From the NCBI GenBank assembly GCA_964473325.1, contig CAYYOG010000004.1, positions 48,258 through 112,257 of the forward strand: a stretch of 64,000 nt of DNA. The letters run 5' to 3'. The notes beneath the pieces were generated by a model that was not told the origin of the DNA, did no database searches, and worked only from the letters and a program-made list of their open reading frames with translations. Every line of letters starts with the position of its first letter. Position 1 is the stretch's first letter. Position numbers and translations under genes: made by a program. Positions 4,076 to 44,187 of this stretch are shown here, in pieces. Source of the stretch: an uncultured Thermotogae bacterium (GTDB lineage Bacteria > Bipolaricaulota > Bipolaricaulia > RBG-16-55-9 > DRXL01).

Positions 4076-4161
4076 TCTGCTTTTTCACGGAAGACTGTAA
4101 AAAAAAGCCCCTCAGCCTGTAGCTTTTCAACAAGACTTAACTTACAAAGGAGGTTGGTCAC

Positions 4162-5457: not shown

Positions 5458-5483
5458 CATCTATAAAGTAAGAGCAGAGTGTA

Positions 5484-5530
5484 CACAGCCCTGTCGAGCT
5501 GTCAAGCTTGGCAGGGCTGTTATTGTTTTA
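5484..5530. terminator. Probable bidirectional intrinsic terminator
   Basis: ACAGCCCTGTCGAGC-TGTCAA-GCTTGGCAGGGCTGT hairpin followed by a T-rich tail, between convergent genes. Confidence 0.7.
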
Positions 5531-6637: not shown

Positions 6638-7778
6638 AGCGAATCCGGGGATCGACCCACGCGAGCATGATATCTGCTAAGAGATTGCCCAGCAGTAATA
6701 AGATCGCGAAGAACATCAGCAGCGTCTGGACTAAATAATCGTCATAGGCGCGCAGGGCTTCGTAAAAGAGCCGTTCGACTGTGGGGAAATTGAGCACGAT
6801 CGCCGTGATGAGCGCACCGCCGATCAAGCCGGGAAGACTCTGCCCAAAGATGCTGATCATCACATTGAGGGCGTTGCGCAGCGCGTGCTTATAGATGACG
6901 ACGCGCTCACTCAATCCCTTAGCCCGCGCGGTCATAATATATTGAGAACCTAGAATGTCGAGCATCTGCCCGCGCATGACGCGCATAAGCCCCGCAATCG
7001 ATGAGCTGCCAATCACCAAGACTGCTGGCCACAAGTGCCATAGATAGTCAAGCCATTTTCTGAGCGACCAATCCCACGGCCAGGGTGACCCGCCCATGTG
7101 CTCTTGCACGAAGAGCCCCCCTACAGACGCTCCGGGATTGCCTGGGCAGAAGAACTGCCAGCCCCAACCGCACAGCGTCGGCGTGAGCGAGACGACGAGC
7201 CAGTACATTAACACTAACGCCAGGAAGAAATTAGGGATTGAAAGCCCGGCAAACCCTAAGAGCGTGAAGATATTGTCGCCAAGAGAGTATTGTCGCGTCG
7301 CGGCGTAGATCCCCAGTGGCAGCGAGATGAGCCACGCAAAGAGAAATGTTGGCACAGTCACTAAAAGCGTGAGAGGCAGGCGCTCCCAAAAGAGCGTTGA
7401 GACGGGTTGGTTGGTCTCGAACGAAAACCCAAAGTCGGGGTTCCAATGGATGAACGGAAATTTAGCGCTCACTGACCAGACTTTCCATCGTTGTCCGGTT
7501 GCGGGGTCAGAGCTCTCACTGCTGAAGAGAATCCCTTTGAGCCAGCGCCAGTAGCGCTCCGCGCAGCCGCTCCATTGCCATTGCAAAGGCTCGCAAGGCT
7601 TCTCGAGCCCTAAGTGCTTGGCAATGTTTTGCAGTGTCTCTTGGGAGATGCGCTCGTTTAGTTTGTATTTTGTCAAGAAGTCGCCAGGAGCGAGCTGGAC
7701 GACCACGAACGCGACGATGGAGATGACAAACATCGTCGGGATCATATAGACGAGACGGCGCACAATATAGTTGAGCAT
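6630..7778 (-). CDS. oppB: Oligopeptide ABC permease OppB/DppB (system 1)
   Basis: MLNYIVRRL start, LAPGD, YIMTARAKGLSE, YAWVDPRIRY-like C-terminus. Confidence 0.9.
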   Translation of the reverse strand: MLNYIVRRLVYMIPTMFVISIVAFVVVQLAPGDFLTKYKLNERISQETLQNIAKHLGLEKPCEPLQWQWSGCAERYWRWLKGILFSSESSDPATGQRWKVWSVSAKFPFIHWNPDFGFSFETNQPVSTLFWERLPLTLLVTVPTFLFAWLISLPLGIYAATRQYSLGDNIFTLLGFAGLSIPNFFLALVLMYWLVVSLTPTLCGWGWQFFCPGNPGASVGGLFVQEHMGGSPWPWDWSLRKWLDYLWHLWPAVLVIGSSSIAGLMRVMRGQMLDILGSQYIMTARAKGLSERVVIYKHALRNALNVMISIFGQSLPGLIGGALITAIVLNFPTVERLFYEALRAYDDYLVQTLLMFFAILLLLGNLLADIMLAWVDPRIRYD

Positions 7779-19724: not shown

Positions 19725-22700
19725 ATGCGCCCTATAAAACTCACCTTCGCAGTCGTTCTCGTAGCTCTGGGAATCGGCCTATGGCTCAGTGGGGTTCCGG
19801 CATACGCGCAGTTCACGATCACCAGGACATCATCTCCTATCTTTTACATTGACAGCGGCGTCAGCCCACCGCTCAGGGCAATGTATGTTTCTTACAAAAT
19901 CTGCAACACCAGTGGGACCAACTATCCAGACATCTGGGTGAATATTAGCGGTTTTACTGGTGGGATCGTCTCATTAGCTCCCTATGAGGACGGTGTGGTG
20001 CATCTTGGCACGATCAACGCGGGGCAATGTAAGGCAGCGTTCTTCTACCTGCAAGCGAGCGGGCCAACAACTACACCGCAGTCGCACACGGTGCGCGTCT
20101 TTGCTGGACCTCCGTCGGGCACACCGCTGGCCAGCGCGACGTTCTCGTTTACGAGCGTCGAAGAGACCATCAAGGCGAGCGCTAACAAAGTCCATACTGT
20201 GGTCATCAGCACCAATGATCCCATACTCGGAACGCTCATTGTTATCACCGTGACAGGCGAATCCGGCGTAATAGGCGCAGCACGAGTGATGTCTTATACG
20301 CCTGCATCGTACACGACATGGCGTGCGGATTGCTTCATGCTCTACAGGACGACGATCACCCTTACTGGGGGCAACACCGGCACGTTCACCGATCAATTGC
20401 TGATACCACCCGACTCGCTTCCCTCTCCGGCAAACACGAATTACACGGCAATGTACACATTTCGTGTAGCGGATGTGTGTACTCTCCCGACAACAGTGAG
20501 CCCTGTGGCCTATATCAGCAGCGGGATGGAAGTGAAGCACACAGACACGGGCAATTTCGGCGCACTGCCCCCTGTCAACCCTGTGAGTAATAACCTCGTC
20601 ATCCTTAGCAAGACAGCAACACCAGATACTTTGCCGGGAACGGGCGGTGTAGTAACTTATACGATAACATTAGCCAACGGCGCTGCCGATGACGTTACCC
20701 TCGACGATGTCAGAGACACACTGCCCACGACTCCAGCTATACCAACGTATGTAAGCGGGTCATCCCAGTGGGACGGCTCACCAGTCCCTGATCCTGTTGT
20801 ATCGGGCAATATATTAACTTGGTATGGGTTCTTAACGATCCCTGCTGGTTCAACTGCGGCGTTAAGGTATCAGATAGCATTCCCCGCGATCAACTGCGTC
20901 TCGTACCACAACAGCGCCGTTGGTCATATCGGATCAGCGCAGATAGATACGACTCTTGATACAACAGATAATGCCCCCGCTCAAGAGACCGTGAACGTGG
21001 GAACCAATTGTCAGGATCTAGCGATCACCAAGACCCACACGGGCAATTTCGTCGTCGGCCAGCAAGGGGTGTACACAATCACTGTGACGAACGTTGGTGA
21101 AGCAAGTACAACAGGAACGATCACAGTGACTGATACGTTGCCTACAGGACTAAGCTACGTTTCTGCCACGGGAACGGGTTGGAGCTGCTCTGCTATGGGA
21201 CAGATAGTCACGTGCACGAACCCTGGGCCCTTAGCTCCCGGCGACAGCACGAGTATTACTATCACCGTAAACGTGCTCCCTGGGGCCTACCCCAGCGTGG
21301 ACAACGTGGCAACAGTTTCAACGCCTGGCGATACCAATACTTCAAACGATCAAACAACTGATACAACACTGGTCGATGCTCCAGATCTCGCTATTCAAAA
21401 GACCCACACAGGGGACTTCATCGTAGGGCAAGATGGGACGTACACCATCACCGTGACGAACGTCGGCACTATCCCAACCACAGGAACGATCACTGTCACA
21501 GACACGCTGCCCAATGGATTGAGTTTTGTCTCCGGGGTAGGCACAGGCTGGAGCTGCTCTGCCGTTGGACAAACAGTCACCTGCACCAATCCTGGCCCGC
21601 TGGCTCCTAGCGCAAGTAGTACTCTCACTTTAACAGTCAGCGTCGGCCCTGGAGCAGTGCCCAGCGTCACAAACAGCGTCACGGTCTCTACTCCCAACGA
21701 CCCAAACCCCAATAACAATACTGCTGATGACCCCACTGTGGTGTTATCAGCACCAGATCTAACAATTGTTAAGAGTCATAGCGGCGATTTCATCGTCGGG
21801 ACTACTGGGACGTACACGATTACCGTGACCAATATCGGCTTTGGGAGCACGACGGGGACGATCACCGTGACGGATACGCTGCCCACAGGGCTGAGCTTCG
21901 TCTCCGGGACGGGAACGAATTGGACGTGCTTTGCCGTTGGGCAGACCGTGACGTGCACGAACCCTGGCCCGCTCAACCCCAGCGACAGCAGCAGCATTAC
22001 GCTCACGGTGAGTGTGGACCTAGACGCTTATCCATCAGTCATAAATACAGCAAGCGTCTCTACACCAGGCGACATTGATCCTGATAACAATAGCGACGAC
22101 GATCCCACAGATGTCCTTGCGCCTGATCTGCAGATCACAAAGAGCCACGTGGGGAACTTCGTGGTCGGGCAACACGGCGTCTATACAATCGCGGTCACCA
22201 ATACTGGGATGGCTCCTACGGTAGGGACGATCACTGTTACAGATAATTTGCCCCTCGGACTGACGTTTGTCTCAGGGGTAGGTCCGGGCTGGACGTGCTT
22301 TGCTGACGTCCAAACCGTGACGTGCACGAACCCCGGCCCGCTCAACCCCGGCGATAGCAGCAGCATTACGCTCACCGTCAGTGTCGGCCCAGAAGCCGTT
22401 CCTAGCGTCACTAACTCCGCGACGGTGACAAACCCTTACGATCCTGATCCGTCCAATAACACCGATGACGACCCAACCGATGTCGAGCCGGTTGCTGATC
22501 TGCACCTCATCAAGACCGTCGACAATCCCAACCCCAACCTGGGCGATACAATCACCTTTACAGTGACTGTCACCAACGACGGTCCCAACACCGCGACGGG
22601 CGTCGTAGTGACCGATCAATTGCCTTCAGGACTGACGTTCGTCTCGTACAGCGCCAGCCAAGGGACCTATAACAACGTCACCGGAATCTGGACGGTCGGA

Positions 22701-24932
22701 ACACTCAATGTCGGCGCGAGCGCCACGCTCTCCATTCAAGCCATCGTCTCGACTGTAACCCCCATCGTCAATACCGCGGAAGTGACCGCGTCGGATCAGC
22801 TCGATCCCGACTCGACTCCCAATAACAATGACCCCACGGAAGACGATCAAGCAACGGTGATCGTCGCGGGCCAAGTCGCTGATCTGAGCTTACAAAAGAC
22901 CGTAGACAACCCCACGCCGGGAGTGGGAAGCACGGTGACCTTCACGATCACGCTCTCCAACGCCGGTCCTAATACCGCGACCAATGTAGCCGTGCAGGAT
23001 CAACTGCCGACAGGGCTAGGTTTCGTCTCTTACGCGGCTAGCCAGGGCACCTATAACACCATCACTGGGGTCTGGACCGTGGGCAACGTGCCTGCTGGAT
23101 CTACGGCCACGTTGACTATAGTCGCCCTGGTGACAGCGCCGGGGGCGATCACGAACAGCGCTGAAGTGATCGCAGTGGATCAACCCGATCCCGATTCCGT
23201 CCCCAATAATAACGATCCCACCGAGGACGACCAAGATGACGCGGTGATTGAGGCTCAACCCGCCGATCTCACGATTACCAAGAGCCATTCCGGGAGCTTT
23301 GCTGTAGGTTACACCGGTACATATACGTTAACTGTTACGAATATCGGCGCGGGGAGCACGACTGGGCCGATTATCGTCACGGACAATCTGCCGATGGGAC
23401 TAACGTTTGTCTCGGGCACCGGGCCAGGCTGGACCTGCTCAGCCGCTTTGCAAGTCGTCACCTGCACGAACCCCGGCCCGCTCGCCCCCAGCGCTAGCAC
23501 AACTATTACGCTGACAGTCAACGTCTTAGAGGGGGCATTCCCCAGCGTGACCAACCGCGTCACCGTCACGACGCCCGGCGACGGCAACCCTGACAACAAC
23601 TCCGACGACGACCCGACAGATATCGTCGCCCCCGATTTACAGATCACCAAGAGCCATACGGGAAGCTTCGTTACTGGCTCTACCGGTGTCTATACGATCA
23701 CCGTGACGAACGTGGGCAACGGGCCAACGTATGGCCCTATCGTCGTCACTGATACGCTGCCGACGGGGCTGACGTTCGTGTCGGGGACTGGGCCAGGGTG
23801 GACCTGCTCAGCAGCTTTGCAAGTCGTCACGTGTACGAACCCCGGCCCGCTCGCCCCTGGGGCAAGCACGACGATCACCCTCACGGTGAGCGTCTCTCGT
23901 GACGCCATCCCCAGCGTCATAAACACTGTGACTGTCTTCACGCCGGGTGATATAAACCCCGAGAACAACAGCGACGATGACCCAACTGACGTTGAGATTG
24001 GCCTAGGACAAATCTGCGGCTTCAAGTGGCTCGATCTTGACGCCGATGGCAACCGAGCTGAAAACGAGCCGTATTTGCCGGGCATTACGATCACCCTTGT
24101 CGGCGTGGACGTCTTCGGTAACCCCGTCACCCTCTCGACCGTCACCGACGAGAACGGGCAGTATTGCTTCACTGGACTTGTGCCAGGGACGTATCTCATC
24201 TGTGAGGCACCGCCCGAAGAGATCTCGTTCTTCGAGACCTTCCCCGTCAGCGGACCCGTTTGCCCCAATGGCACCATCGGCTGGCTCATCAATTTGGGGG
24301 ATGGGCAGAATCTGCATCGCATCAAGTTCGGGAACGCCCCCGACGAGCCGTCGCTCGCCCCGTTGTCTGTGACAGTGATCCAAGCCGTCGCGACCCCGCA
24401 CGCGGTCTACTTCCGCGCCATCGGCCAGGGGATCAAAGAGATCGCCGTTGAACTCTTCGACCTAAGCGGGCGAGCGATCTATCGCAGCGGGTGGCAGAAG
24501 AATAACTTCGTGTGGACCTATCAGAACGAGCGCGCCGGGCGCGTCGCTCCAGGAGTCTATCTCTACTTCATGGGCGTCAAGGGCCACGACGGGACAATAA
24601 TCAAAACAGAGCTGCGTAAGCTGGTCATCTCGCCCAAGCCTTCTATCGTCGAGCAGCTCGTGGCTCAAGCGTCTCCGACGGTTCTGGTACGCTCGCAGCG
24701 CGAGGGGATTCAGTTTACGCTCATGAGCCATCACGAGTTCCGTGTGCAGGTCTTCGATCTGAGCGGACGACTCGTCTACACGAGCGACTGGGGGAATACG
24801 AATATCCTCTGGAAGCTTCAGAATAATAAGGGCCAGCGCGTTGCCAAGGGCGTCTATCTCTACGTCGTCACCGTGTGCAGCCCTGATGGGGAGATCACGC
24901 GAACGAAGCTTCAGAAGCTGATCGTGAAGTAG
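19725..24932 (+). CDS. Large surface adhesin: about 9 DUF11 repeats, SdrD B-like domain, two T9SS-CTD/FlgD-like C-terminal domains
   Basis: DLxITKxH / DLxLxKTVDN...TITVTN.G...VTDTLP repeats; GFKWLDLDADG...TDENGQY.F..L.PGTY; tandem FDLSGR...GVYLY...KL modules. Confidence 0.85.
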   Translation: MRPIKLTFAVVLVALGIGLWLSGVPAYAQFTITRTSSPIFYIDSGVSPPLRAMYVSYKICNTSGTNYPDIWVNISGFTGGIVSLAPYEDGVVHLGTINAGQCKAAFFYLQASGPTTTPQSHTVRVFAGPPSGTPLASATFSFTSVEETIKASANKVHTVVISTNDPILGTLIVITVTGESGVIGAARVMSYTPASYTTWRADCFMLYRTTITLTGGNTGTFTDQLLIPPDSLPSPANTNYTAMYTFRVADVCTLPTTVSPVAYISSGMEVKHTDTGNFGALPPVNPVSNNLVILSKTATPDTLPGTGGVVTYTITLANGAADDVTLDDVRDTLPTTPAIPTYVSGSSQWDGSPVPDPVVSGNILTWYGFLTIPAGSTAALRYQIAFPAINCVSYHNSAVGHIGSAQIDTTLDTTDNAPAQETVNVGTNCQDLAITKTHTGNFVVGQQGVYTITVTNVGEASTTGTITVTDTLPTGLSYVSATGTGWSCSAMGQIVTCTNPGPLAPGDSTSITITVNVLPGAYPSVDNVATVSTPGDTNTSNDQTTDTTLVDAPDLAIQKTHTGDFIVGQDGTYTITVTNVGTIPTTGTITVTDTLPNGLSFVSGVGTGWSCSAVGQTVTCTNPGPLAPSASSTLTLTVSVGPGAVPSVTNSVTVSTPNDPNPNNNTADDPTVVLSAPDLTIVKSHSGDFIVGTTGTYTITVTNIGFGSTTGTITVTDTLPTGLSFVSGTGTNWTCFAVGQTVTCTNPGPLNPSDSSSITLTVSVDLDAYPSVINTASVSTPGDIDPDNNSDDDPTDVLAPDLQITKSHVGNFVVGQHGVYTIAVTNTGMAPTVGTITVTDNLPLGLTFVSGVGPGWTCFADVQTVTCTNPGPLNPGDSSSITLTVSVGPEAVPSVTNSATVTNPYDPDPSNNTDDDPTDVEPVADLHLIKTVDNPNPNLGDTITFTVTVTNDGPNTATGVVVTDQLPSGLTFVSYSASQGTYNNVTGIWTVGTLNVGASATLSIQAIVSTVTPIVNTAEVTASDQLDPDSTPNNNDPTEDDQATVIVAGQVADLSLQKTVDNPTPGVGSTVTFTITLSNAGPNTATNVAVQDQLPTGLGFVSYAASQGTYNTITGVWTVGNVPAGSTATLTIVALVTAPGAITNSAEVIAVDQPDPDSVPNNNDPTEDDQDDAVIEAQPADLTITKSHSGSFAVGYTGTYTLTVTNIGAGSTTGPIIVTDNLPMGLTFVSGTGPGWTCSAALQVVTCTNPGPLAPSASTTITLTVNVLEGAFPSVTNRVTVTTPGDGNPDNNSDDDPTDIVAPDLQITKSHTGSFVTGSTGVYTITVTNVGNGPTYGPIVVTDTLPTGLTFVSGTGPGWTCSAALQVVTCTNPGPLAPGASTTITLTVSVSRDAIPSVINTVTVFTPGDINPENNSDDDPTDVEIGLGQICGFKWLDLDADGNRAENEPYLPGITITLVGVDVFGNPVTLSTVTDENGQYCFTGLVPGTYLICEAPPEEISFFETFPVSGPVCPNGTIGWLINLGDGQNLHRIKFGNAPDEPSLAPLSVTVIQAVATPHAVYFRAIGQGIKEIAVELFDLSGRAIYRSGWQKNNFVWTYQNERAGRVAPGVYLYFMGVKGHDGTIIKTELRKLVISPKPSIVEQLVAQASPTVLVRSQREGIQFTLMSHHEFRVQVFDLSGRLVYTSDWGNTNILWKLQNNKGQRVAKGVYLYVVTVCSPDGEITRTKLQKLIVK

Positions 24933-25587: not shown

Positions 25588-27654
25588 CTAACGCAGATAA
25601 AGCTCTACGCTGTTTTTCTGTGAGTCCCACAGCACCCCGACGCGTATAAGAGCGTCGGGGAAGAACTCAAGCTCTGTGCCAAGCTGCCCGTCTTTGTGAG
25701 CGAAGAGACGCGCGCGCAGATGCTCGCTCAGTTCAGTCGTCACGCCCACACGCCAGCCAAGACTGTTCTCCCAGAGGCGTTGCCCTGTGCGCGTCGCAGT
25801 CACAGCCCATACAGAGAGCTCAAGCCAGTTTTGAAAGACTCTCCAGCTTCCACTCCATTCAACGCCAATCTGATGAGCGATAGAGTCTTCTTCTATACGC
25901 CGATAGAAGAGCGATAGGCTCTGTTGTGTGCTTAAGCTCGTGATGAGAGGCAGCGTCGCCGTCAGCGACTGATGGGCTTTCAAGCCATCTCGCGCGATGA
26001 GGGCTTCTAGAGACGCTAAGAGTACGCGGTTCTCATAGCGCACAAAGTACGTTGGCAGCAGCGTCTTCCAATTGAAGCCTAGCAGCACGCTATAGAGATG
26101 TTGTCGCAGCGCGTCGCTGCCGAATGTCAGCAGGCTGATGCTGCCAGGCCCTGGCAGAGGAATTAACATCTTAGGCTCCAGCGACAGGCGCGGATCGTAT
26201 GGCGTGATGGGGTAGTCTGTATCGGGGAAGCCGTCCCAAGGTGGGAACGGCTCCGGCTCGATGTGCACTGGCTCCCAACTGTTGATATCAGAAACGTCTA
26301 CGACCTCAAAGAATGTCCCGTCAGCGATTCGATACGCATACGTCTTGAAGAGACCGTCGCGGTCTGACGTGAAGAGCACGAAGTGTCCGTCGGGCGAGAA
26401 CGCTGGGGAGAGATCGAGGGCACGGTCGCGGGTGATTGGGGAAAAGGCCCTCACTCCTAGCTCCTCTCCCGTGGGTGAGCCACGGGAGAGAGGTACTGCA
26501 GGCAGGGTGAGGGCCATCAGATAGATATCTTGAAAGCCGCCGCGGCGCCAGATCGAGAGCGCGATATGTTCGCTATCGGGCGAGATCGCGAACGAGTCTA
26601 TAAAATAATCGTGCAACGGGAATTCTTTCAGCGTCTGCATCTGTTGTGTCGCGAGATCAAAGATCGCCAAGGCTGGCCCTTGATCCCCCCAGCGATGGCG
26701 CGCTACTAAGATTCTTTGTTCATCAGGGAAAAGCGCAGCACGGTAGATCCGCGCACCCTCGGTCAGACGGATCTCTCGGCGTGCCTTGGAGTCGTAGAGA
26801 TAGAGATCGCCGAAGAGAGACGAGTGTTTGTAGATTTCGTGCTTGATGAAGGCCCTCACCCCTAACCCCTCTCCCGTGGGTGAGCTACGGGAGAGGGGTG
26901 CCGCAGGCAAGGTGAGGGCCTCAAACTCGGCAGCGATCTGTGCAAACGATTTCCCAGTCAAACGCCGAAATATCTGATCACGATCGTTCCAAAGCCCCAG
27001 CGAGAGCGTCGCTTTAGGGTCGTTGGCTTGCAGCCGATGCCATTCTTTCAAAAACTCCGGTCCGAAACGCTCTGCGAGGAAGCGCACGAATCTGTGCTCT
27101 CCTCCAATATGGAGACGTGCATCGGGCGGCGTGTTCAAAGCCTCTTCGGCGAGATACTCCCCAATCCCAGCGAGAAGCTCTGAAGATTTTAAGTTTGGTA
27201 AAACGAGCTTGCCCAGCAGCGGCCTTAAGACTTCCGAGATGCCAAAGACATAGTTAGCGCTCACCAACTGCGCGTAGAGCACAAAGACGCTCTGCTCTAC
27301 CCAACCGGGGAATTTGGGGTTGAAGCGCTCAGCGAGATCTCCTTGAGCGACGCAGATCGTGATTCTGTTTTGAAAAACATCGAGCTCCCGGTGCGCTGTA
27401 TCCCTAGCATCGCACAGCACGAGGTCAACTCTCTCAGAGGGTGCATATGCGAGTTTGGTGAGCAAATACTGATACGCGTCCTCGGCAGCGACAGCTGCTT
27501 CTTGGGCGAGGCCCTCCAATCCCGATGGGAATGTCACGCGAAAGTGCTCAGTGTGGATCGTGTGCCAAACTAAACTTGGCTCACCGAGCCGTTGCCCAGA
27601 CGTACCCCACGACAGCCCTAACAGCACTGTGAGAGCGACGACGATAGAGCGCAT
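25588..27654 (-). CDS. Degenerate paralogue of the peptidase-PD40-Omp85 protein, carrying two in-frame palindromic insertions
   Basis: Collinear with 29988-32741 (WHTIHTEHF, GDLYLYD, RRGGFQDIYL, PAFSPDG); no HExxH; shortened barrel region. Confidence 0.75.
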   Translation of the reverse strand: MRSIVVALTVLLGLSWGTSGQRLGEPSLVWHTIHTEHFRVTFPSGLEGLAQEAAVAAEDAYQYLLTKLAYAPSERVDLVLCDARDTAHRELDVFQNRITICVAQGDLAERFNPKFPGWVEQSVFVLYAQLVSANYVFGISEVLRPLLGKLVLPNLKSSELLAGIGEYLAEEALNTPPDARLHIGGEHRFVRFLAERFGPEFLKEWHRLQANDPKATLSLGLWNDRDQIFRRLTGKSFAQIAAEFEALTLPAAPLSRSSPTGEGLGVRAFIKHEIYKHSSLFGDLYLYDSKARREIRLTEGARIYRAALFPDEQRILVARHRWGDQGPALAIFDLATQQMQTLKEFPLHDYFIDSFAISPDSEHIALSIWRRGGFQDIYLMALTLPAVPLSRGSPTGEELGVRAFSPITRDRALDLSPAFSPDGHFVLFTSDRDGLFKTYAYRIADGTFFEVVDVSDINSWEPVHIEPEPFPPWDGFPDTDYPITPYDPRLSLEPKMLIPLPGPGSISLLTFGSDALRQHLYSVLLGFNWKTLLPTYFVRYENRVLLASLEALIARDGLKAHQSLTATLPLITSLSTQQSLSLFYRRIEEDSIAHQIGVEWSGSWRVFQNWLELSVWAVTATRTGQRLWENSLGWRVGVTTELSEHLRARLFAHKDGQLGTELEFFPDALIRVGVLWDSQKNSVELYLR
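26446..26515. repeat. Palindromic repeat family A, copy 3 (in frame within CDS)
   Basis: GGCCCTCAC...GTGAGGGCC ends; inner stem CTCTCCCGTGG/CCACGGGAGAG; 62/70 identical to the copy at 26851. Confidence 0.92.
26851..26920. repeat. Palindromic repeat family A, copy 4 (in frame within CDS)
   Basis: Perfect 10-bp inverted ends GGCCCTCACC/GGTGAGGGCC; inner stem CCCCTCTCCCGT/ACGGGAGAGGGG. Confidence 0.92.
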
Positions 27655-29987: not shown

Positions 29988-32741
29988 TTACATCCCAAAT
30001 GCCAAATAGACTCGCGGGCTTGGCTCGCCCAGCCCCTGCGCGACGCCAGCCCTCAATGCCCAGCTCACGAAATACCCTGTTGTCAGCGAGAGACTGATCT
30101 CTGCACCAAAGCCGAGCTTCAAACTGTCTATAGTGAGCGTCTCCCCAGCAAGCCCTGCGTCAATGAAGACCCCGCCGCGAAGATCGTCGAAGAAGATCGG
30201 CCAATAGCCCAGCGCGCGCTCGATCGTCGCTAAGGGGAATCTATACTCGATCGACGCAATGAGAGCTTGCTTACCCTGCTGGACTTTTTCGGCGAAGCCC
30301 CGCAACGCAAACTCTCCCATGTGCCCGCCAAGCGAAAAGCCGTCCTCGGCTTTCTCCGCGTCGCTCCAGCCGCCAATAAATCTCAAGCGCAGCGTGTGCG
30401 CCTCTACGAAGGGCAGCCGAAAGACCTCGCTCAGCGTCATGGTGAGCTTTCGATAGGGCTTGCCATCGCTGGGGCTTGTGAGTTGTCCTCTCACTGAGAG
30501 CGAGAGCGTGTCGCGCCAGAGATCTGCCCCGCGCATGCTTCGATAGCTGTATTGCGCAGTGTACGTGTCTTCTGTCCAGGGAGTGGGATGGTCCGGCTCT
30601 TTGGGTGGGCGATTCGCATGGCTGTAGCTTACGCTGAGTTGTTGCTGGCTCAAGATGCTTAGCGCCAGCGGCATCAGCGCGCTGATTTTCTGAACGCGGC
30701 CGTCGCGAGTATCGCTCATGGAGAGCGAGAGCGCAGGCAAGAACTGCGCGAGCGCATAATCAACCGAGTAGAACGGCTTGCTCTGCTCGGGGTCCCAGCC
30801 CGCGACGATCTGATACGCGTGCTTGCCCAAGACGTCTTGTCCAAGAGTAACAACCCCAACAGATTTCCCGTCGCTGAAGGGCAACCAGAGCTTGGGCAAG
30901 AGTGAGGGGATCATATCGTAAGGCTTGAGAGAGAAGTGTGTCTTTTGAAAGCCGGGCCACTCCGGAAGGGTCTCTTTGGTGATCGTGACGGGCTTCCAAC
31001 TTTGCGGGTTATAGGGCATCAGGTGAATATCATAGCCGTCGCTGCTGTAGCTCGTGAACGCGATCGTCGTTCCGTCAGGTGAGACGACAGGGTCGAAAGC
31101 GCCCGTCAAGACGTTCGTGACTTTGTAAAACGAGCCATCGTCGAGCTTATATGCGTAGATATTCGCAACGCGATACTCGCCCCTATCGGAGCTGAAGAGA
31201 ATATACTGCTCATCGGGCGCGAAGCTAGGATCGAGGTCTTCGTCTTTGTCTTGGGTGATGGGCTGGAGCTCGCCGCCTTCAGTGGGCAAGAGATAGATAT
31301 CTTGATACCCACCACGCCGCCAGAGTGAAAGCGCGAGCGCCTTGCCGTTGGGAGAGACAGCAATCGAGTGCACTGTGACGCTGTTGTCAGCAAATTCTTT
31401 GACGGGCGTGATCTTCCCAGATTTCAGATCGAGCTTGGAGATTGCCGTGCTGGCGTCGCGCCCGATGTGATGGGCAAAGTAGATCGTCTGGCCGTCAGGG
31501 GCAAACGCCGCGACATAGGCCCGCGCGCCGTGCGTCAGCCGCCGTTCCCTCTTTTGCTCTAAATCGTATAGATATATGTCGCTGAAGGCGTAATAGAAGC
31601 CGTTAAGGTCGAGCTTGGTGTAGAGCACAGAGCGCCCGTCGGGGGCAAAGGACGGCAGTTCGTTGGGACCAAAGAGAATCTCGTGATCGTTCTCGCCTTC
31701 GGCGCTTATGACTCTCAGTCCATTGCGCCCTGGCCCGCTGTGGCTATAGGCGATCTGCTTCCCATCGGGTGACCACGAAGGTTGCCCGCTCATCCAGCCG
31801 AGCTGGGTCAGCCGTACGCTCGATGTCAAACCCTCGCGGGTGATCGCTTCGATCTCAGCAGAAAATTTCTGACGCAGCCAGGCGCGAAAGCCTGCATAGG
31901 CTTCATCAGCCGACTTACCCAAAGCTTTCTTTAAGATCGTGTCAAAGTTGTCACCGAAGAAGAGCATCAAGAGTGCATTCATCACGCTTGCGGAGTTGAC
32001 GTCGTTGAATTTCTTCATGCTCTCTGGACCGTAGGTCTCCTCGATGTAGTGCAGGAACCAAGAACTAAAATTGTAGACGAGCAGGCCCACCGGTGGCCAC
32101 GCCGCGCGATTATAATAGCGCGAGATCTCATCGAATCTGGGAATCTTGTTGTCTAAGACCAGCTGGCGGACCATCATGATCGTATTGGCGTCGTTGAGGC
32201 GCGACTCGCCCAAATGCTTGTATTTCTCGTAGACAGCTAAACCCTCGATGAACGTGATAGGCTTGCTCGCATTGGGGACGACGATCCTGCCGAAGATCGC
32301 GCGCAGCAGCGCGTTCACTCCCGTTGCAATGTCCAAGTCCATGATGTGCAGCAACTCGTGATAGACCACAACGCGAATCCAGCTATCGAGGCGTACGTTG
32401 GCCCAGTCGGCCAGGCGCATCTGTGCTGGGCCAATATAAATAGTATTTTGGGGGAAGGGCGTGGCTGAGCCGACAATCGAGTCTATAAAGTCAACGATGA
32501 CGATATACACTTTGTCCGTTGGAGCCTTGCCAAACTCGCGCTTGATGATCTCATACGACTCTTCGGCGACAGTTGCCGTCTCATGGGCGATGTTCTCTAG
32601 GCCCTGATGAAAGACAATGACAAAGTGCGGCGTTTCTAGCTGCTGCCAGATGAGCGCCGGATCGAAGATTGTCACTTGGGCATAGCTCACTACAGCGCTG
32701 CAAGCCACGAGAAGCGCTATGAACAGAATGCGACGCGTCAT
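29988..32741 (-). CDS. Gluzincin (peptidase MA-like) + PD40/TolB propeller + Omp85/BamA-type barrel protein
   Basis: Signal peptide; YHELLH and FIEGLA; PSWSPDG, PSFAPDG, PVVSPDG repeats; barrel motifs LRGF and FIDAG. Confidence 0.85.
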   Translation of the reverse strand: MTRRILFIALLVACSAVVSYAQVTIFDPALIWQQLETPHFVIVFHQGLENIAHETATVAEESYEIIKREFGKAPTDKVYIVIVDFIDSIVGSATPFPQNTIYIGPAQMRLADWANVRLDSWIRVVVYHELLHIMDLDIATGVNALLRAIFGRIVVPNASKPITFIEGLAVYEKYKHLGESRLNDANTIMMVRQLVLDNKIPRFDEISRYYNRAAWPPVGLLVYNFSSWFLHYIEETYGPESMKKFNDVNSASVMNALLMLFFGDNFDTILKKALGKSADEAYAGFRAWLRQKFSAEIEAITREGLTSSVRLTQLGWMSGQPSWSPDGKQIAYSHSGPGRNGLRVISAEGENDHEILFGPNELPSFAPDGRSVLYTKLDLNGFYYAFSDIYLYDLEQKRERRLTHGARAYVAAFAPDGQTIYFAHHIGRDASTAISKLDLKSGKITPVKEFADNSVTVHSIAVSPNGKALALSLWRRGGYQDIYLLPTEGGELQPITQDKDEDLDPSFAPDEQYILFSSDRGEYRVANIYAYKLDDGSFYKVTNVLTGAFDPVVSPDGTTIAFTSYSSDGYDIHLMPYNPQSWKPVTITKETLPEWPGFQKTHFSLKPYDMIPSLLPKLWLPFSDGKSVGVVTLGQDVLGKHAYQIVAGWDPEQSKPFYSVDYALAQFLPALSLSMSDTRDGRVQKISALMPLALSILSQQQLSVSYSHANRPPKEPDHPTPWTEDTYTAQYSYRSMRGADLWRDTLSLSVRGQLTSPSDGKPYRKLTMTLSEVFRLPFVEAHTLRLRFIGGWSDAEKAEDGFSLGGHMGEFALRGFAEKVQQGKQALIASIEYRFPLATIERALGYWPIFFDDLRGGVFIDAGLAGETLTIDSLKLGFGAEISLSLTTGYFVSWALRAGVAQGLGEPSPRVYLAFGM

Positions 32742-33701: not shown

Positions 33702-33831
33702 AGAGCCTCCTTCGCTCTCGGTTACTTATTGTAAAGCCGAGGTGCTTTGGTAAGCAAATAGTTCTGCAAATCCCTAGCACGCAGGACACCAGTCCGTGCC
33801 TGTCACAAGGAATACTCGCTATGCTCACAGC

Positions 33832-35292
33832 ATGAAACTCTCAGCAAGGGAGATCACTCAAGCGACCGGCGGGGCTCTCATGGTAGGCTCGCTCGAGGCT
33901 CTTTGCGATGGCGTCTCGATAGACTCCCGCACAATTTGCTCAGGGCAACTCTTCGTGCCATTGCGGGGCGCTCGCCACGACGGGCACGACTTTATCGCTG
34001 AGGCGCTGCAGCGGGGAGCAGCTGGCTTTCTGTTTTCTAGGCCTTTGCCCCCTCACCCCTCTTTCCCCTCTCCCCTCCGAAGGGACTATGGGGTGAGGGC
34101 CGCCATTCATGTCCACGACACCCTGCGCGCCCTAAGCGATCTCGCCCAACGGGCCATCACGAAACTCAACGCTCAGATTGTTGCGGTTGCTGGGAGTAAC
34201 GGCAAGACCACCACCAAAGAGCTGGTCGCTTTTGTGCTCGCTCAGCGGTTTCGCACCCACGCAACACCAGGAAACCAAAACACTGAGATTGGGCTTCCCC
34301 TCACTGTGCTCAATGCCCCAGACGACACAGAGATGCTCGTCCTTGAGATGGGGACGACAGCTCTCGGAGAGGTGCGCCGGCTCTGTCAGATCGCTCCGCC
34401 TCAGATCGGCGTGCTCACCAGTGTCAGCGAGGAGCATCTGGAGACGCTGGACAACCTCGAGAGCGTCATGGAAGCCGAGACGGAGTTACTGGAAGCACTC
34501 CCTCCGTGTGGGCTTGCTGTCGTCAACGGTGACAATCCTGAAGTGCTTACGGTCGCCCACAGAAAAGCTCGCTGTCGGATTGTCACATTCGGGTTTTCCC
34601 CACAGAACGATCTCGTCGCTGAGGGCGTGACGATATCACGCCGAGGGACACGCTTTTTCATAAAAAGCCCGGGATGGCGGGACGAAATGGGCATAGCGCT
34701 CTTGGGACGCCCAGCGGTCCTCGCCGCTTTAGCAGCAATTGCCGTCGCGCAACACCTTGGGCTTTCTTTCTCAGAGATCCGCCGCGGCTTGATGAGCGCT
34801 CGTAGCGTCTGGGGACGGCTCCAGCTTCTCCCTATTCCCGACACAGCGATCACTGTCTTGCACGATGCGTACAACGCCAACCCGGCTTCGATGCGCGAAG
34901 CGATCTTCTGTGCTGCGCAGATTCGCCATCCCGACGAGGAGCTGATCTTCGTGCTCGGGGATATGCTCGAGCTGGGAGCGCTGAGCGAACGTGCGCATCG
35001 CGAGATCGGGAGATTGCTCGCTGACTCCAAGTTCCGGCCGGATCGGCTTATCGTCGTCGGGGGGTGGGCACGGCTCATAGGAGAGGAAGCGGCGCGTGCA
35101 GGCATCCCTGTAGAGTGTTGTGCGACTTCTGATGATGCTGCCCAGGCTGTACCTTTGATATGTGACAGACAATGCTTTGTCTTGCTGAAAGGCTCGCGCG
35201 GGATGCGCCTTGAAAAAGTGCTTGATGTGCTAGCACATCAAGCACTTCTATCTGCATATAGCGATAACCAAGCGCGAGCGAGCCGAACGTGA
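33832..35292 (+). CDS. murF: UDP-MurNAc-tripeptide--D-Ala-D-Ala ligase MurF
   Basis: IDSRTI, VAGSNGKTTTKE, GNQNTEIGLP, LEMG, DAYNANPASM, GDMLELG, LKGSRGMRLE. Confidence 0.93.
   Translation: MKLSAREITQATGGALMVGSLEALCDGVSIDSRTICSGQLFVPLRGARHDGHDFIAEALQRGAAGFLFSRPLPPHPSFPSPLRRDYGVRAAIHVHDTLRALSDLAQRAITKLNAQIVAVAGSNGKTTTKELVAFVLAQRFRTHATPGNQNTEIGLPLTVLNAPDDTEMLVLEMGTTALGEVRRLCQIAPPQIGVLTSVSEEHLETLDNLESVMEAETELLEALPPCGLAVVNGDNPEVLTVAHRKARCRIVTFGFSPQNDLVAEGVTISRRGTRFFIKSPGWRDEMGIALLGRPAVLAALAAIAVAQHLGLSFSEIRRGLMSARSVWGRLQLLPIPDTAITVLHDAYNANPASMREAIFCAAQIRHPDEELIFVLGDMLELGALSERAHREIGRLLADSKFRPDRLIVVGGWARLIGEEAARAGIPVECCATSDDAAQAVPLICDRQCFVLLKGSRGMRLEKVLDVLAHQALLSAYSDNQARASRT
34049..34101. repeat. 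Palindromic repeat family A, copy 5 (in frame within murF)
   Basis: Perfect inverted ends CCCTCACCCC/GGGGTGAGGG; encodes PPHPSFPSPLRRDYGVRA. Confidence 0.8.
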
Positions 35293-39574: not shown

Positions 39575-40105
39575 TTATCTCCCTGTGCGCACGAGATCTG
39601 CTGCGCGCAGTGCAGCTTTGAAGATCTTCGGATACGCTCCACAGCGACACAAGTTTCCCGCCAGAGCGCGCTTGACATCCTCGAGTGTGGGGGTGGGGTT
39701 CTTGTCGAGCAGCGCTTTCACGGACATAATTTGCCCTGGGGTGCAAAAGCCGCACTGGAGGGCATCTTCTTCGATGAACGCTTGCTGTATGGGATGGAGC
39801 TTCTCATTGTGAGAAAGCCCCTCGATGGTCTCGATGGACTTGCCCTCACACTCGACGGTGAGGGCCATACACGCGTAGATCGGCTCGCCGTCTACTAAAA
39901 CAGTACACGCGCCGCAGGTGCCCTCATCGCAGGCTTTCTTCGTTCCCGTCAATCCCAGGTCTTTTCTGAGGGCGTCCAGAAGTGTGCGGCGCGGCTCGAC
40001 GAGCACGTCATGCGTTTCGCCGTTGACGATCAGTTTTACAGGGGTTTTGCTCGGCCCGCGGGCAGCGATCTTGAGTTTTCTTGAACGGGCGGCTTTGGTC
40101 GCCAT
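39575..40105 (-). CDS. Xanthine dehydrogenase-family 2x[2Fe-2S] subunit
   Basis: GTKKACDEGTCGAC, QCGFCTPG, GNLCRCGAY; GAGGAGG SD before ATG 40105; no Tat motif. Confidence 0.92.
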   Translation of the reverse strand: MATKAARSRKLKIAARGPSKTPVKLIVNGETHDVLVEPRRTLLDALRKDLGLTGTKKACDEGTCGACTVLVDGEPIYACMALTVECEGKSIETIEGLSHNEKLHPIQQAFIEEDALQCGFCTPGQIMSVKALLDKNPTPTLEDVKRALAGNLCRCGAYPKIFKAALRAADLVRTGR

Positions 40106-40134
40106 AGGAACCTCCTCGCTCACACTCTCGGAAG

Positions 40135-42890: not shown

Positions 42891-42963
42891 GGGTCGTTAG
42901 CTCAACTGGTAGAGCATCCGGCTCTTAACCGGAGGGTTGTAGGTTCGAGTCCTACACGACCCA
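42891..42963 (+). tRNA. tRNA-Lys (CTT)
   Basis: Acceptor GGGTCGT/ACGACCC; anticodon arm TCCGG-CTCTTAA-CCGGA; GGTTCGAG T-loop; CCA not encoded. Confidence 0.95.
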
Positions 42964-42970
42964 CATCTTT

Positions 42971-43043
42971 GTCCCCATCGACTAGCGGTCTAGGTCACGG
43001 CCCTTTCAAGGCCGAAACGGGGGTTCGAATCCCCCTGGGGACG
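42971..43043 (+). tRNA. tRNA-Glu (TTC)
   Basis: Acceptor GTCCCCA/TGGGGAC; CGGCC-CTTTCAA-GGCCG; GGTTCGAA T-loop; CCA not encoded. Confidence 0.95.
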
Positions 43044-44187
43044 TATCTAGTCTATCGCTCACCAGCTCGATCAAGTCTGTGACTTGAATCTGGCTGCCTA
43101 CGACTTTTGTGGCCTCGTGGAGGTTCACCATGCAGAATTGGCAAGCCGTCACAACAAGATCAGCGCCGGTGTCGATGGCCTGCTTCAAGCGAGTCTCGGC
43201 TAAGCGTGCTTGTTCGTCTTTGATGGGCTCAACCCACATCCTGCCGCCACCGCCCCCGCAACAGAGCGCGCGTTCTCTACAGTCTTTCATCTCGATCAAC
43301 GTGACGCCGGGCATCGCGTTGATGATCTGCCTAGGGGCGTCGTAGATCTTATTGTGCCTGCCCAAAAAGCAAGGATCATGATACGTAACTTTAATCGGTG
43401 GCCCCTCAGCGAAGCTCAATCGGCGAGCTTGGAGAAGCTCTGCAAGGAACTGAACATAGTGCTGCACTTCCCAAGGTCCTGAAGGGTACTCATTTTTGAA
43501 AGCATTATAGCAGTGAGGTGACCCAGCCACGATCTTCTTGATCTTATACTTGTGCCAGAGCGCAGTATTAGTGTCAACGAGCATCTGAAAGAGCCCTTCT
43601 TCACCCAAACGGCGAATGCAACTGCCGCAACAGTTCTCTTCTTCTCCTAGGATGCCAAAGGGAATCCCAGAGTGTATCAAGACACGGACCATAGATTGAG
43701 CGATCTTCTGGGCTCTGGGATCATACGAGGCAGCACAACCGACATCATAGAGTATTTCCGTGTTTTCCGTGGGACGCCCGATATTGAGTGCAGCAGCCCA
43801 TTTAGCGCGTTCGCTCCGTGGCTTGCCCCAAGGGTTTCCGTACCGATCTGTCCCTTTAAAAGCAGCAAAGAGTGCCTTCGTGACGTGTTGAGGTACGCTG
43901 CCATTCTCGACGGCCCGGCTCCGCAGTGAAGCCAAAACTTCTGGAGGCTTGACTGCCATGGGACAGCGTGCCACGCAGGCGTTACAACTCGAGCAAACCC
44001 AGAGCTGCTCAGAACTGAGAACTTCTTCTGGTGCCAGTTGTGCTTTGAGCATTAACTTCCTCGGGTTGAAGCCCACGGTAGTGCTAAAGGGGCAGATGCT
44101 GCCGCAGGCCCCACACTGAAAACAGATATTCGCTTGCCGCAGCCTCGACTCTATGACTTTCTCGATATCAGTTATCTCTGCTGCCAT
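43006..44187 (-). CDS. HdrD/GlpC-like Fe-S oxidoreductase (2x4Fe-4S + 2 CCG domains)
   Basis: CFQCGACGSICP, CSSCNACVARCP, ENCCG, YHDPCFLGR, LCCGGGGG. Confidence 0.88.
   Translation of the reverse strand: MAAEITDIEKVIESRLRQANICFQCGACGSICPFSTTVGFNPRKLMLKAQLAPEEVLSSEQLWVCSSCNACVARCPMAVKPPEVLASLRSRAVENGSVPQHVTKALFAAFKGTDRYGNPWGKPRSERAKWAAALNIGRPTENTEILYDVGCAASYDPRAQKIAQSMVRVLIHSGIPFGILGEEENCCGSCIRRLGEEGLFQMLVDTNTALWHKYKIKKIVAGSPHCYNAFKNEYPSGPWEVQHYVQFLAELLQARRLSFAEGPPIKVTYHDPCFLGRHNKIYDAPRQIINAMPGVTLIEMKDCRERALCCGGGGGRMWVEPIKDEQARLAETRLKQAIDTGADLVVTACQFCMVNLHEATKVVGSQIQVTDLIELVSDRLDTSPGGFEPPFRP

What the first reader, a model, noticed from the sequence alone, without database searches (positions are those of the whole stretch)
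26446..26920. Two copies of a 70-bp palindromic element translated in frame inside one protein
Seen: two 70-bp elements (62/70 identical, 10-bp inverted ends, inner GGGAGAG/CTCTCCC stem) are both read in the same frame as ALTLPA(V/A)PLSR(G/S)SPTGE(E/G)LGVRA. Against the paralogue at 29988-32741, one replaces the short loop PTEGGELQ and the other sits where roughly 70 aa of propeller are missing. Known analogues are Rickettsia palindromic elements and cyanobacterial small dispersed repeats. Inference: an active, frame-preserving mini-element is remodelling proteins in this lineage, and may promote deletions.
Basis: partly seen in the sequence, partly recalled or inferred. Interest (0 to 1): 0.75.

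Follow-up and report, generated by a model that had tools for sequence, protein, structure and literature searches.

The report
Triplex-motif palindromic repeats inside genes
Two copies (plus a decayed third) of a small, hairpin-forming repeat related to the known BoxC/"triplex-motif" repeats of bacteria sit in frame inside working genes and are translated as floppy surface loops; this is a new example of a known phenomenon, not a new kind of system.

Summary
Two 70-nt palindromic repeats (62/70 identical) lie at 26446-26515 and 26851-26920 in one 688-aa ORF. Both are read as ALTLPA(V/A)PLSR(G/S)SPTGE(E/G)LGVRA. Two independent assemblies carry the same protein. A third, decayed copy sits in frame in MurF (34047-34101).

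The element is built from the CCCTCNCCC/GGGNGAGGG blocks of the published BoxC/PIT/"TM" intrastrand-triplex repeats (Holder 2015). Here they form a two-ended, two-hairpin sub-family. Its closest copies are in Bipolaricaulota/Fraserbacteria MAGs and metagenomes, some intergenic and some in frame in RecG, Tgt, a Mur ligase and a GT2 enzyme.

Distant homologues lack the inserts. Orthologues carry different variants or other palindromes at the same sites, extra copies elsewhere, and in two relatives a stop codon inside the element. AlphaFold models both inserts as the only disordered internal loops. The host gene is under purifying selection (dN/dS 0.12-0.28).

"Frame-preserving" is not intrinsic: copies average 2.9 of 6 open frames, like random sequence, and lengths are not multiples of three. 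No transposase or target duplication was found. The elements coincide with deletion junctions.

Verdict: a new variant of a known kind (RPE-like in-frame repeats), of moderate interest.

The parts
26851..26920 (.). Copy c2 of the two-ended, two-hairpin repeat, close to the sub-family consensus. On the + strand it reads GGCCCTCACCCC-TAA-CCCCTCTCCCGT-GGGTGAGCT-ACGGGAGAGGGG-TGCC GCA GGCA-A-GGTGAGGGCC. It is translated on the - strand as host residues 246-268, ALTLPAAPLSRSSPTGEGLGVRA.
   Evidence: (-57.4 kcal/mol, z -8.2). It matches a copy in RecG on an unrelated metagenome contig (64/70) better than it matches c1 (62/70).
26446..26515 (.). Copy c1, the more decayed copy, with several stem mismatches. 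It is translated on the - strand as host residues 381-403, ALTLPAVPLSRGSPTGEELGVRA.
   Evidence: (-48.7 kcal/mol, z -5.5).
25588..27654 (-). Host ORF, 688 aa: signal peptide, N-terminal helical domain, TolB-like PD40 beta-propeller (shortened) and a C-terminal beta-rich domain. It carries both inserts and is under purifying selection.
   Evidence: dN/dS 0.12-0.28; pLDDT 86.8; the only internal segments below 50 are 252-264 and 386-399; TolB top hits.
34047..34101 (.). Third, decayed element of the same block family: CCCCCTCACCCC-TCTTT-CCCCTCTCCCC-TCCGAAGGGACTAT-GGGGTGAGGGCC. It is read in frame on the + strand inside MurF as PLPPHPSFPSPLRRDYGVRA. It is orthologous to an intact four-block copy in the relative L126 (2633-2687).
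   Evidence: I4; about 13 extra residues against E. coli MurF 1gg4.
33796..35292 (+). MurF (UDP-MurNAc-tripeptide--D-Ala-D-Ala ligase) ORF, hosting the third element in the loop before the conserved V-DT motif.
   Evidence: E 8.8e-55 to 1gg4; dN/dS 0.15.
29988..32741 (-). Full-length 917-aa paralogue without any element. It serves as the reference for the ancestral state of both insert sites.
26270..26302 (-). Site 3, a deletion junction in the host ORF (...FFEVVDV|SDINSWEP...). A 32-aa propeller segment kept by orthologue L122 is missing here. Relatives L126/L127 (CCCCTCCCCGACACGGGGAGGGG) and L124 (CCCTCTCCCTGAGAGGGA) carry small C/G-block hairpins at this junction. The window has none.

Best explanation
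The two 70-nt repeats, and the decayed copy in MurF, are members of a dispersed, non-coding, hairpin-forming repeat family. The family is built from the CCCTC(A/T)CCC / GGG(A/T)GAGGG blocks that define the BoxC/PIT/'TM' intrastrand-triplex repeats.

In this lineage the blocks form a 'two-ended' sub-family: a 10-12 bp outer stem (GGCCCTCACCCC...GGGGTGAGGGCC) enclosing a long hairpin (CCCCTCTCCCGT-loop-ACGGGAGAGGGG) and a short one (TGCC-CGnAG-GGCG).

Shown:
- The family is spread over unrelated loci and organisms.
- It lands or persists inside coding sequence.
- The copies that survive there sit in surface loops or at domain junctions.
- They happen to be stop-free and restore the frame.
- They encode a P/G/S/L-rich peptide that is predicted to be disordered.

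Inferred:
- Spread and turnover need a factor acting in trans, or short-homology recombination or template switching at the conserved termini. There is no linked transposase and no target duplication.
- Copies at a given site are renewed or replaced over time.
- The hairpins favour adjacent deletions, which have shortened this propeller step by step.
For: Identity with the known blocks:
- On the - strand c2 reads CCCCTCTCCC-N13-GGGAGAGGGG-TTA-GGGGTGAGGG. That is the block order, and the type-A TTA loop, of the TM motif in PMC4666352.
- Canonical TMs that fit the published pattern exactly occur in the orthologous loci, both in frame (L123 809-845) and intergenic (L123 2325-2360, L125 275-309).

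Dispersal:
- The architecture was found in at least 119 genome stretches from many phyla and at least 120 metagenome stretches.
- 21 two-ended copies align over their whole length.
- The structure is 97% paired, against at most 59% in slid controls, with compensatory changes at the variable pairs.

DNA-level element, not a protein motif:
- Copies are intergenic in Bipolaricaulia.
- They are read in different orientations and frames inside RecG, a Mur ligase, Tgt and GT2.

Insertion polarity:
- E. coli and P. aeruginosa MurF and all distant propeller homologues lack the inserts.
- L122 has a private copy behind the signal peptide where the host, L124, L125 and L126 are empty.
- L123 has a private canonical TM.

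Independence of the two window copies: c2 is closer to L189 (64/70) than to c1 (62/70).

Tolerance:
- The AF2 model has pLDDT 86.8, and only residues 252-264 and 386-399 are disordered internally.
- dN/dS is 0.12-0.28.

Selection rather than design: 2.9 of 6 frames are open, as in random sequence; lengths are not multiples of 3; and there is a stop inside the element in L126/L127.

Deletions: site 1 replaces about 51 aa that L122 keeps, and site 3 hairpins sit at a 32-aa deletion. This fits the TM-associated instability reported in PMC4666352.
Against: - No mobilising enzyme was found. None appeared among 40 window ORFs, and no transposase family recurred among 148 ORFs near copies (only the top 25 of 182 families were shown).
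- There is no recognisable target-site duplication.
- No pair of identical copies was seen, so recent activity is not demonstrated.
- The strict published TMECO pattern does not match the window copies: loop 1 is 13 nt, not 3-6, and the stems are 10 nt.
- At site 2 every orthologue has some palindrome, two of them unrelated to TM. An in-situ process or selection for a hairpin could also explain this.
- A search with the insert peptides found no other protein.
Confidence: 0.72

Rival explanations
1. It is a classical MITE: a deletion derivative of an insertion sequence. A cognate transposase would recognise the GGCCCTCAC.../...GTGAGGGCC terminal inverted repeats and move it by cut-and-paste or copy-paste.
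For: - The 10-12 bp inverted termini are almost invariant across 21 copies.
- Copies are dispersed in unrelated genes, with presence/absence differences between orthologues.
Against: - The one clean filled/empty comparison shows no target-site duplication.
- There is no transposase in the window, and none recurs near 148 ORFs beside copies.
- The parent family was reported not to be associated with transposons, phages or plasmids (PMC4666352).
- Most relatives carry only one 'end'.
Confidence: 0.15
2. The hairpins are made or kept in place. Quasi-palindromes in tolerant loops would be perfected by replication template switching, or a stem-loop at these positions of the mRNA or DNA would be selected for a function such as a pause or processing site. 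The similarity to the dispersed family would then be secondary.
For: - At site 2 all five orthologues have a palindrome, but with five different sequences. These include a perfect 14+14 (L124) and a perfect 27+27 (L125) unrelated to the window copy.
- The window has a perfect 16+16 palindrome inside the MurF 3' coding end, whose L126 homologue is not palindromic.
- Variable pairs covary.
Against: - The window copies are 86-91% identical over 70 nt to copies in unrelated genes on unrelated contigs. In-situ origin cannot produce that.
- Rfam has no match.
- Hairpins at the same site break the gene in L126/L127, which argues against a conserved function.
- Different REPs at one site of recB are already known from Xanthomonas and are ascribed to insertion (PMC3733652).
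Confidence: 0.1
3. The repeated peptide is a genuine, ancestral protein motif (a linker or binding site) duplicated within the protein.
For: Both window copies are read in the same frame and orientation.
Against: - Distant and close homologues lack the peptide.
- DNA is conserved while the peptides differ by frame (ALTPPFGHPSPVGDYGRGVGGEGL, RPSPLAPLPSSRTGEGWPIGRGEGP, EALTPSPSPVGELRERGAEGGVRA).
- Intergenic copies exist.
- Both inserts are predicted to be disordered.
- A peptide search finds nothing.
Confidence: 0.02
4. It is an assembly artefact, or a recent local duplication of one copy within the gene.
For: There are two similar copies 405 nt apart in one gene.
Against: - Two independent read sets give the identical protein.
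- c2 is closer to external copies than to c1.
- Relatives at about 78% nt identity also carry block-type elements at both sites.
Confidence: 0.01

Closest known systems
BoxC / PIT elements / 'TM' (TMECO) G/C-rich intrastrand triplex motif repeats (Bachellier; Hoyne & Maher 2000; Holder et al. 2015, PMC4666352)
   Same: - Same sequence blocks in the same order (CCCTCTCCC ... GGGAGAGGG-TTA-GGGTGAGGG), including the type-A TTA loop.
- High G+C, multi-copy and dispersed, found in many phyla.
- No associated transposase.
- 'Palindromic' paired forms exist.
- Associated with local deletions and instability.
- Canonical TMs occur in the orthologous loci of relatives.
   Different: - The window copies have 10-nt blocks, a 13-nt first loop (published range 3-6), a fourth block that makes the element two-ended, and an extra short hairpin. 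The published pattern does not match them.
- TMECO in E. coli is always intergenic. All three window copies are translated.
- Triplex formation was not tested here.
Rickettsia palindromic elements, RPE (Ogata et al. 2000, 2002; summarised in PMC10969869 and PMC3733652)
   Same: - Small palindromic repeats inserted in frame into unrelated, functional housekeeping genes.
- They add a peptide that is compatible with the fold.
- No own coding capacity, and the mobilising enzyme is unknown.
   Different: - RPEs are about 100-150 bp, A+T-richer, confined to Rickettsia and tagged by CGTC. There is no sequence relation to them.
- Here the element is 61-76 nt, 70-80% G+C, and belongs to a pan-bacterial block family.
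- RPEs were reported to be biased towards in-frame insertion. This family shows no intrinsic frame bias.
REP sequences (GTAG/CGTC super-families) found inside genes (Di Nocera et al. 2013, PMC3733652)
   Same: - Short G+C-rich hairpin repeats, mostly intergenic, with a minority inside ORFs of known proteins, many of them DNA repair or replication genes (here RecG).
- Different REPs at about the same site of recB in two Xanthomonas species resemble site 2 here.
   Different: - REPs are 20-40 nt single hairpins with a GTAG or CGTC tag, and GTAG REPs are linked to RAYT transposases.
- These elements end in GGCC...GGCC and have a three-helix fold, and no RAYT was seen.
Bacterial MITEs that make in-frame fusions (intragenic ERIC, Coxiella QMITE, Anabaena MITEs; PMC10969869)
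   Same: Terminal inverted repeats, non-autonomous, and occasional in-frame fusion with host ORFs.
   Different: MITEs normally have target-site duplications and a recognisable parent IS. Neither was found here.

Membership tests
BoxC / PIT / TMECO triplex-motif repeats | Three blocks in the order CCCTCNCCC, GGGNGAGGG, GGGNGAGGG on one strand | tested here: met
   On the - strand c2 reads CCCTCTCCC ... GGGAGAGGG ... GGGTGAGGG (block list). c1 has the same blocks with 1-2 substitutions each. The MurF copy has lost the middle G block.
BoxC / PIT / TMECO triplex-motif repeats | Loop lengths of the published pattern: first loop 3-6 nt, second loop exactly 3 nt between 9-nt blocks | tested here: not met
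   The regex of the published pattern, and a relaxed version, find no match in the window. The first loop is 13 nt. The second loop is TTA only if the blocks are counted as 10 nt. Canonical matches do occur in relatives (L123 809-845 and 2325-2360).
BoxC / PIT / TMECO triplex-motif repeats | Intergenic location (23 of 23 in E. coli K-12) | tested here: not met
   All three window copies lie inside ORFs and are translated. Across other phyla the motif is depleted from long open frames: 51/128 against about 97/128 for random positions.
BoxC / PIT / TMECO triplex-motif repeats | Forms an intrastrand purine-motif triplex in vitro | not testable with these tools
   Only duplex and hairpin folding could be computed. 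CD or NMR on the oligonucleotide would be needed.
BoxC / PIT / TMECO triplex-motif repeats | Multi-copy, dispersed, not linked to transposons, phages or plasmids | tested here: met
   At least 119 genome and at least 120 metagenome stretches. No transposase near the copies.
Rickettsia palindromic elements (RPE) | Palindromic repeat inserted in frame in unrelated functional genes | tested here: met
   Host propeller protein, MurF, RecG, Tgt, a Mur ligase and GT2. The host gene has dN/dS 0.12-0.28.
Rickettsia palindromic elements (RPE) | About 100-150 bp units of the ten RPE sequence families, restricted to Rickettsia, with a CGTC tag | tested here: not met
   The units are 61-76 nt with GGCC termini, and the closest copies are in Bipolaricaulota/Fraserbacteria MAGs. 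Sequence comparison with RPE consensus sequences was not run, because none was at hand.
MITE | Terminal inverted repeats | tested here: met
   GGCCCTCACC / GGTGAGGGCC; 11 outer pairs are 98.7% paired in 21 copies.
MITE | Target-site duplication flanking the insert | tested here: not met
   Filled L122 against the empty host/L126 alleles: CAG|element|TTA GGG against CAG AGG CTG GGC. One codon is replaced and there is no duplication. The flanks of c1, c2 and c3 share nothing. This rests on a single clean comparison.
MITE | Parent IS or transposase with matching ends | tested here: inconclusive
   None was found in the window or among 148 neighbouring ORFs, but no whole genome could be searched.
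REP / RAYT system | 20-40 nt hairpin with a terminal GTAG (or CGTC) tag, and a RAYT gene in the genome | tested here: not met
   The termini are GGCC...GGCC and the fold has three helices. No Y1 transposase was found in the window. Genome-wide absence could not be tested.

The most novel reading that the evidence does not exclude
Small hairpin repeats in this lineage are not inserted at random. Instead they are copied into, or replace, pre-existing hairpins at fixed positions inside coding sequence. This hairpin-targeted turnover would work by a trans-acting enzyme, or by template switching at the conserved GGCCCTCACCCC/GGGGTGAGGGCC ends. Under this reading the same codon position of one gene carries a different palindrome in every orthologue, and each round can remove flanking codons. 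Repeat-driven, stepwise domain loss and loop remodelling would then be a regular mode of protein evolution, reaching essential enzymes such as MurF, RecG and Tgt.
Probability: 0.25. Interest if true: 0.7.

Novelty: new variant of a known kind. Interest (0 to 1): 0.45.

Why it matters
BoxC/PIT/TM repeats are among the most widely conserved small repeats in bacteria, yet they have no known function or mobility mechanism. They have been described as strictly intergenic. This locus shows a composite member of that block family being translated inside genes under purifying selection, including essential ones.

Its close relatives give a natural series: empty sites, filled sites, different variants at one site, elements that introduce a stop codon, and deletion junctions. 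That series makes two open questions directly testable. One is how these repeats spread without a transposase. The other is whether they really cause local deletions.

[quoted passage not shown] It is a practical warning as well: the repeats break assemblies and gene calls (L125, L126, L127).

Tried and rejected
- The search for homologous proteins timed out three times with the full host protein, with or without the inserts. A 181-aa fragment returned only three fragmentary hits, which nevertheless led to the useful loci L126 and L127.
- A search with the two insert peptides joined together found no protein sharing words.
- Rfam gave only sub-threshold chance hits to a miRNA model.
Counts are therefore lower bounds.
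Only the closest element matches point to Bipolaricaulota/Fraserbacteria.
- A local duplication of one copy was considered and rejected.
- A protein-level motif was considered and rejected.
- Host-gene decay as the reason for tolerance was considered and rejected for the window allele (dN/dS). The orthologue is, however, broken in L126/L127.
- Intrinsic frame preservation was tested and rejected.
Full report
**1. The observation**

The window holds one two-copy repeat family at 26444-26515 and 26849-26920: 72 nt, 89% identical, 405 nt apart. Patterns derived from the copies match nowhere else in the 64 kb and in none of 100 shuffles.

Both copies lie in ORF 25588..27654 on the minus strand. 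They are read in the same frame as ALTLPAAPLSRSSPTGEGLGVRA (residues 246-268) and ALTLPAVPLSRGSPTGEELGVRA (residues 381-403). Each folds into a very stable structure: -57.4 and -48.7 kcal/mol, z = -8.2 and -5.5.

Against the 917-aa paralogue at 29988..32741, one copy stands in place of the loop PTEGGELQ. The other sits where about 70 residues net are missing. The identical 688-aa protein is encoded on contigs assembled independently from two read sets, so an assembly duplication is excluded.

A gapped search for the termini found a third, shorter element at 34047-34101. It is read in frame in MurF as PLPPHPSFPSPLRRDYGVRA. Here the window protein has about 13 residues more than E. coli MurF, in the loop before the conserved V-DT motif.

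**2. What the element is**

A literature search with the DNA motifs led to Holder et al. 2015 (PMC4666352). That paper describes the BoxC/PIT/'TM' repeats: 5'-CCCTCNCCC N3-6 GGGNGAGGG N3 GGGNGAGGG-3', with type A (TTA) or type B (CCG) second loops. It reports 3610 copies in 262 proteobacterial genomes and high numbers in cyanobacteria and Thermus. In E. coli K-12 they are always intergenic. They are not tied to transposons, phages or plasmids, and they are associated with local rearrangements and small deletions.

On the minus strand, copy c2 reads CCCCTCTCCC-N13-GGGAGAGGGG-TTA-GGGGTGAGGG. That is the same blocks in the same order, with the type-A loop. The window copies are not canonical, though:
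- the blocks are 10 nt;
- the first loop is 13 nt;
- a fourth block (CCCTCACCCC) makes the element two-ended;
- a short extra hairpin (TGCC-GCA-GGCA) is present.

The published pattern does not match them.

A scan of one genome per species found the half-architecture in at least 119 stretches. These came from Chloroflexota, Acidobacteriota, Planctomycetota, Armatimonadota, Gemmatimonadota, Proteobacteria and others. Most of those have only one 'end'. The full two-ended form was closest in MAGs labelled Candidatus Bipolaricaulia, Bipolaricaulota and Fraserbacteria.

A metagenome scan for the sub-family's inner stem found at least 120 stretches. Among them were 18 two-ended copies up to 64/70 identical to c2.

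Twenty-one two-ended copies align end to end. They support a three-helix fold: 97.1% of cells are paired, against at most 58.8% when partners are slid. Compensatory changes fall exactly at the variable pairs, at the top of the long hairpin and in the short hairpin. Rfam has no family for it.

**3. DNA element, not protein motif**

In the Bipolaricaulia locus L053 the copies are intergenic, just upstream of AAAGGAG. In metagenome contigs, Pfam-supported proteins carry copies in frame:
- RecG (L189, aa 94-117);
- a Mur ligase (L208);
- tRNA-guanine transglycosylase (L235);
- a GT2 glycosyltransferase (L244).

Simpler TMs sit in PepN (L076) and a Ser/Thr kinase (L067). The encoded peptides differ by orientation and frame while the DNA is conserved.

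Across phyla the motif is depleted from long open frames: 51/128 against about 97/128 for random positions. Genic copies are therefore the minority.

**4. Orthologues**

An exhaustive HMMER search gave 7742 homologues. The closest ones (P0001, P0002, P0007, P0013), together with fragments P0151 and P0055, could be traced to contigs L122-L127. Synteny confirms orthology. L126 and L127 are about 78% identical to the window in DNA.

Distant homologues have a short xGGELxP loop at site 2 and a full propeller blade region at site 1.

*Site 2.* Every orthologue has a palindrome, and all are different:
- Window: c1.
- L123: a diverged two-ended copy with the same junctions.
- L126/L127: another block-type composite that contains an in-frame TAG, so the gene is split there.
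- L125: a perfect 27+27 nt C/G-block palindrome at which the contig ends.
- L124: a perfect 14+14 palindrome unrelated to TM.
- L122: an unrelated sequence with 8-nt arms that keeps an ancestral-looking loop.

*Site 1.* The window's c2 replaces about 51 residues still present in L122. L126 has a four-block TM there, and L122, L124 and L125 show block remnants.

*Private copies.* L122 has a 60-nt copy behind the signal peptide where the host, L124, L125 and L126 are empty. It replaces one codon and has no target duplication. L123 has a canonical TM in frame at 809-845 and another between genes.

*Site 3.* A 32-residue propeller segment kept by L122 is missing. L126, L127 and L124 have small C/G-block hairpins at the junction, and the window has none.

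*MurF.* The MurF copy is orthologous between the window and L126. The window version has lost about 6 nt of its third block and reads in another internal frame, yet the overall frame is kept.

**5. Tolerance and selection**

The AlphaFold model of the host protein is confident (pLDDT 86.8, pTM 0.87). Its only internal low-confidence stretches are 252-264 and 386-399, which are the two inserts, modelled as coil between regular elements. The central domain resembles TolB.

dN/dS between the window and L126 is 0.12, 0.28 and 0.18 for the three host fragments, against 0.06-0.17 for neighbouring genes. It is 0.12 against the intact orthologue L122. The window allele is therefore a gene under purifying selection, not a pseudogene.

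The family has no built-in frame preservation. Copies have on average 2.9 of 6 frames open, against 3.07 for random 70-mers of the window and 4.3 for composition-matched shuffles. Lengths modulo 3 are 5/8/8. In-frame copies are survivors.

c2 is closer to external copies (64/70, 63/70) than to c1 (62/70), and c1 carries more stem-breaking changes. The two are therefore independent family members of different age, not a local duplication.

**6. Mechanism**

*Shown:* a dispersed structured repeat of the BoxC/TM block family occupies coding loops, is translated as disordered peptide, differs between orthologues, and coincides with deletion junctions.

*Not found:*
- any transposase, RAYT or nuclease among 40 window ORFs;
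- any such family recurring among 148 ORFs next to copies;
- a target duplication.

*Inferred:* spread and renewal use a factor encoded elsewhere, or short-homology recombination or template switching at the nearly invariant termini. The hairpins promote adjacent deletions, as proposed for TMs.

*Rivals:* a classical MITE, in-situ palindrome formation or a selected hairpin, an ancestral motif, and an artefact. They are weighed in the respective fields.

**7. Comparison and novelty**

In-frame palindromic repeats are known: Rickettsia RPEs, intragenic REPs (including different REPs at one site of recB), and intragenic ERIC and other MITEs. The block family itself is also known.

Relative to the literature I could search, three things are new:
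- a composite, two-ended member of the BoxC/TM family is translated inside functional and essential genes;
- a set of relatives shows site-specific turnover;
- the elements are linked to stepwise loss of propeller segments.

I rate it a new variant of a known kind, of moderate interest.

**Limits**

The source genome and its copy number were not obtained. The collection scans were truncated. The organism is not identified. Activity and the deletion-promoting role are inferred, not demonstrated.

Noticed in passing
window 35216-35247: A perfect 16+16 nt palindrome with no spacer (AAGTGCTTGATGTGCT|AGCACATCAAGCACTT) lies inside the 3' coding end of MurF, encoding KVLDVLAHQAL. The homologous stretch in the relative L126 is not palindromic. 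This looks like an imperfect inverted repeat made perfect in place, possibly by template switching. About 1e-5 such palindromes are expected by chance in 64 kb.
   Followed up: partly
window 774-2024 (-): An archaeal-type tRNA pseudouridine synthase Pus10 (Pus10_C E 3.9e-71, archaeal THUMP domain E 1.3e-20) sits in an otherwise bacterial-looking chromosome segment. This is unusual for bacteria.
   Followed up: no
window 21010-23928, within ORF 19725-24932 (+): Six tandem units of about 369 nt (62-73% identical) occur inside a 1735-aa CLIPPER/SdrD_B-type giant surface protein. That gene is missing between the host orthologue and rpmB in the relative L126.
   Followed up: no
L126 9107-11231 and L127 3-1261: In two relatives (about 78% nt identity) the host orthologue is split into three gene calls. 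The element at site 2 carries an in-frame TAG, and P0055 and P0023 also show frameshifts. The same kind of repeat that is tolerated in the window has therefore broken the gene there. In L126 the 917-aa paralogue is also split into two calls (3978-5573, 5701-6732).
   Followed up: partly
L125 5261-5314 (GCA_022683915.1, JAJHSG010000025.1): The contig ends exactly inside a perfect 27+27 nt palindrome (CTTTCCCCCTCCCTGGCCCTCCCCGTA|TACGGGGAGGGCCAGGGAGGGGGAAAG) at site 2 of the orthologue. Many metagenome hits (Ga0100377 contigs) also have copies at contig ends, so these repeats appear to break assemblies.
   Followed up: no
L189 11777-11846; L235 1277-1348; L208 4527-4597; L244 11231-11301; L076 2583-2635; L067 6316-6369: Block-type repeats are read in frame inside RecG, tRNA-guanine transglycosylase, a Mur ligase, a GT2 glycosyltransferase, aminopeptidase N and a Ser/Thr kinase. 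These come from unrelated metagenome and MAG contigs.
   Followed up: partly
L053 967-1058 and 3756-3850: Both Bipolaricaulia copies share longer flanks (GAGGTAA before, and nnAAAGGAG, a Shine-Dalgarno-like sequence, after). In that genome the repeat unit may be larger and may sit in 5' untranslated regions.
   Followed up: no
L133, L154, L178, L194, L198, L202 (metagenomes Ga0100377 and Ga0210033): Copies of a related one-ended variant occur in tandem 46 nt apart and in inverted pairs, in many contigs of one metagenome. Some organism there is extremely rich in this family.
   Followed up: no
window 42891-43044, 53459-53827, 56247-56320: Six tRNA genes: Lys-Glu, Gly-Arg-His and Thr. tRNA-Gly and tRNA-Thr are preceded by similar TAnAAT-containing leaders (repeat family D2).
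   Followed up: no
L122, L123, L124 downstream of the host orthologue: Three relatives have a 159-aa 2Fe-2S ferredoxin-like gene (Fer2/Fer2_2) directly after the host orthologue. It is absent at that place in the window, which has a similar gene at 39575-40123 next to xanthine-dehydrogenase-type subunits.
   Followed up: no
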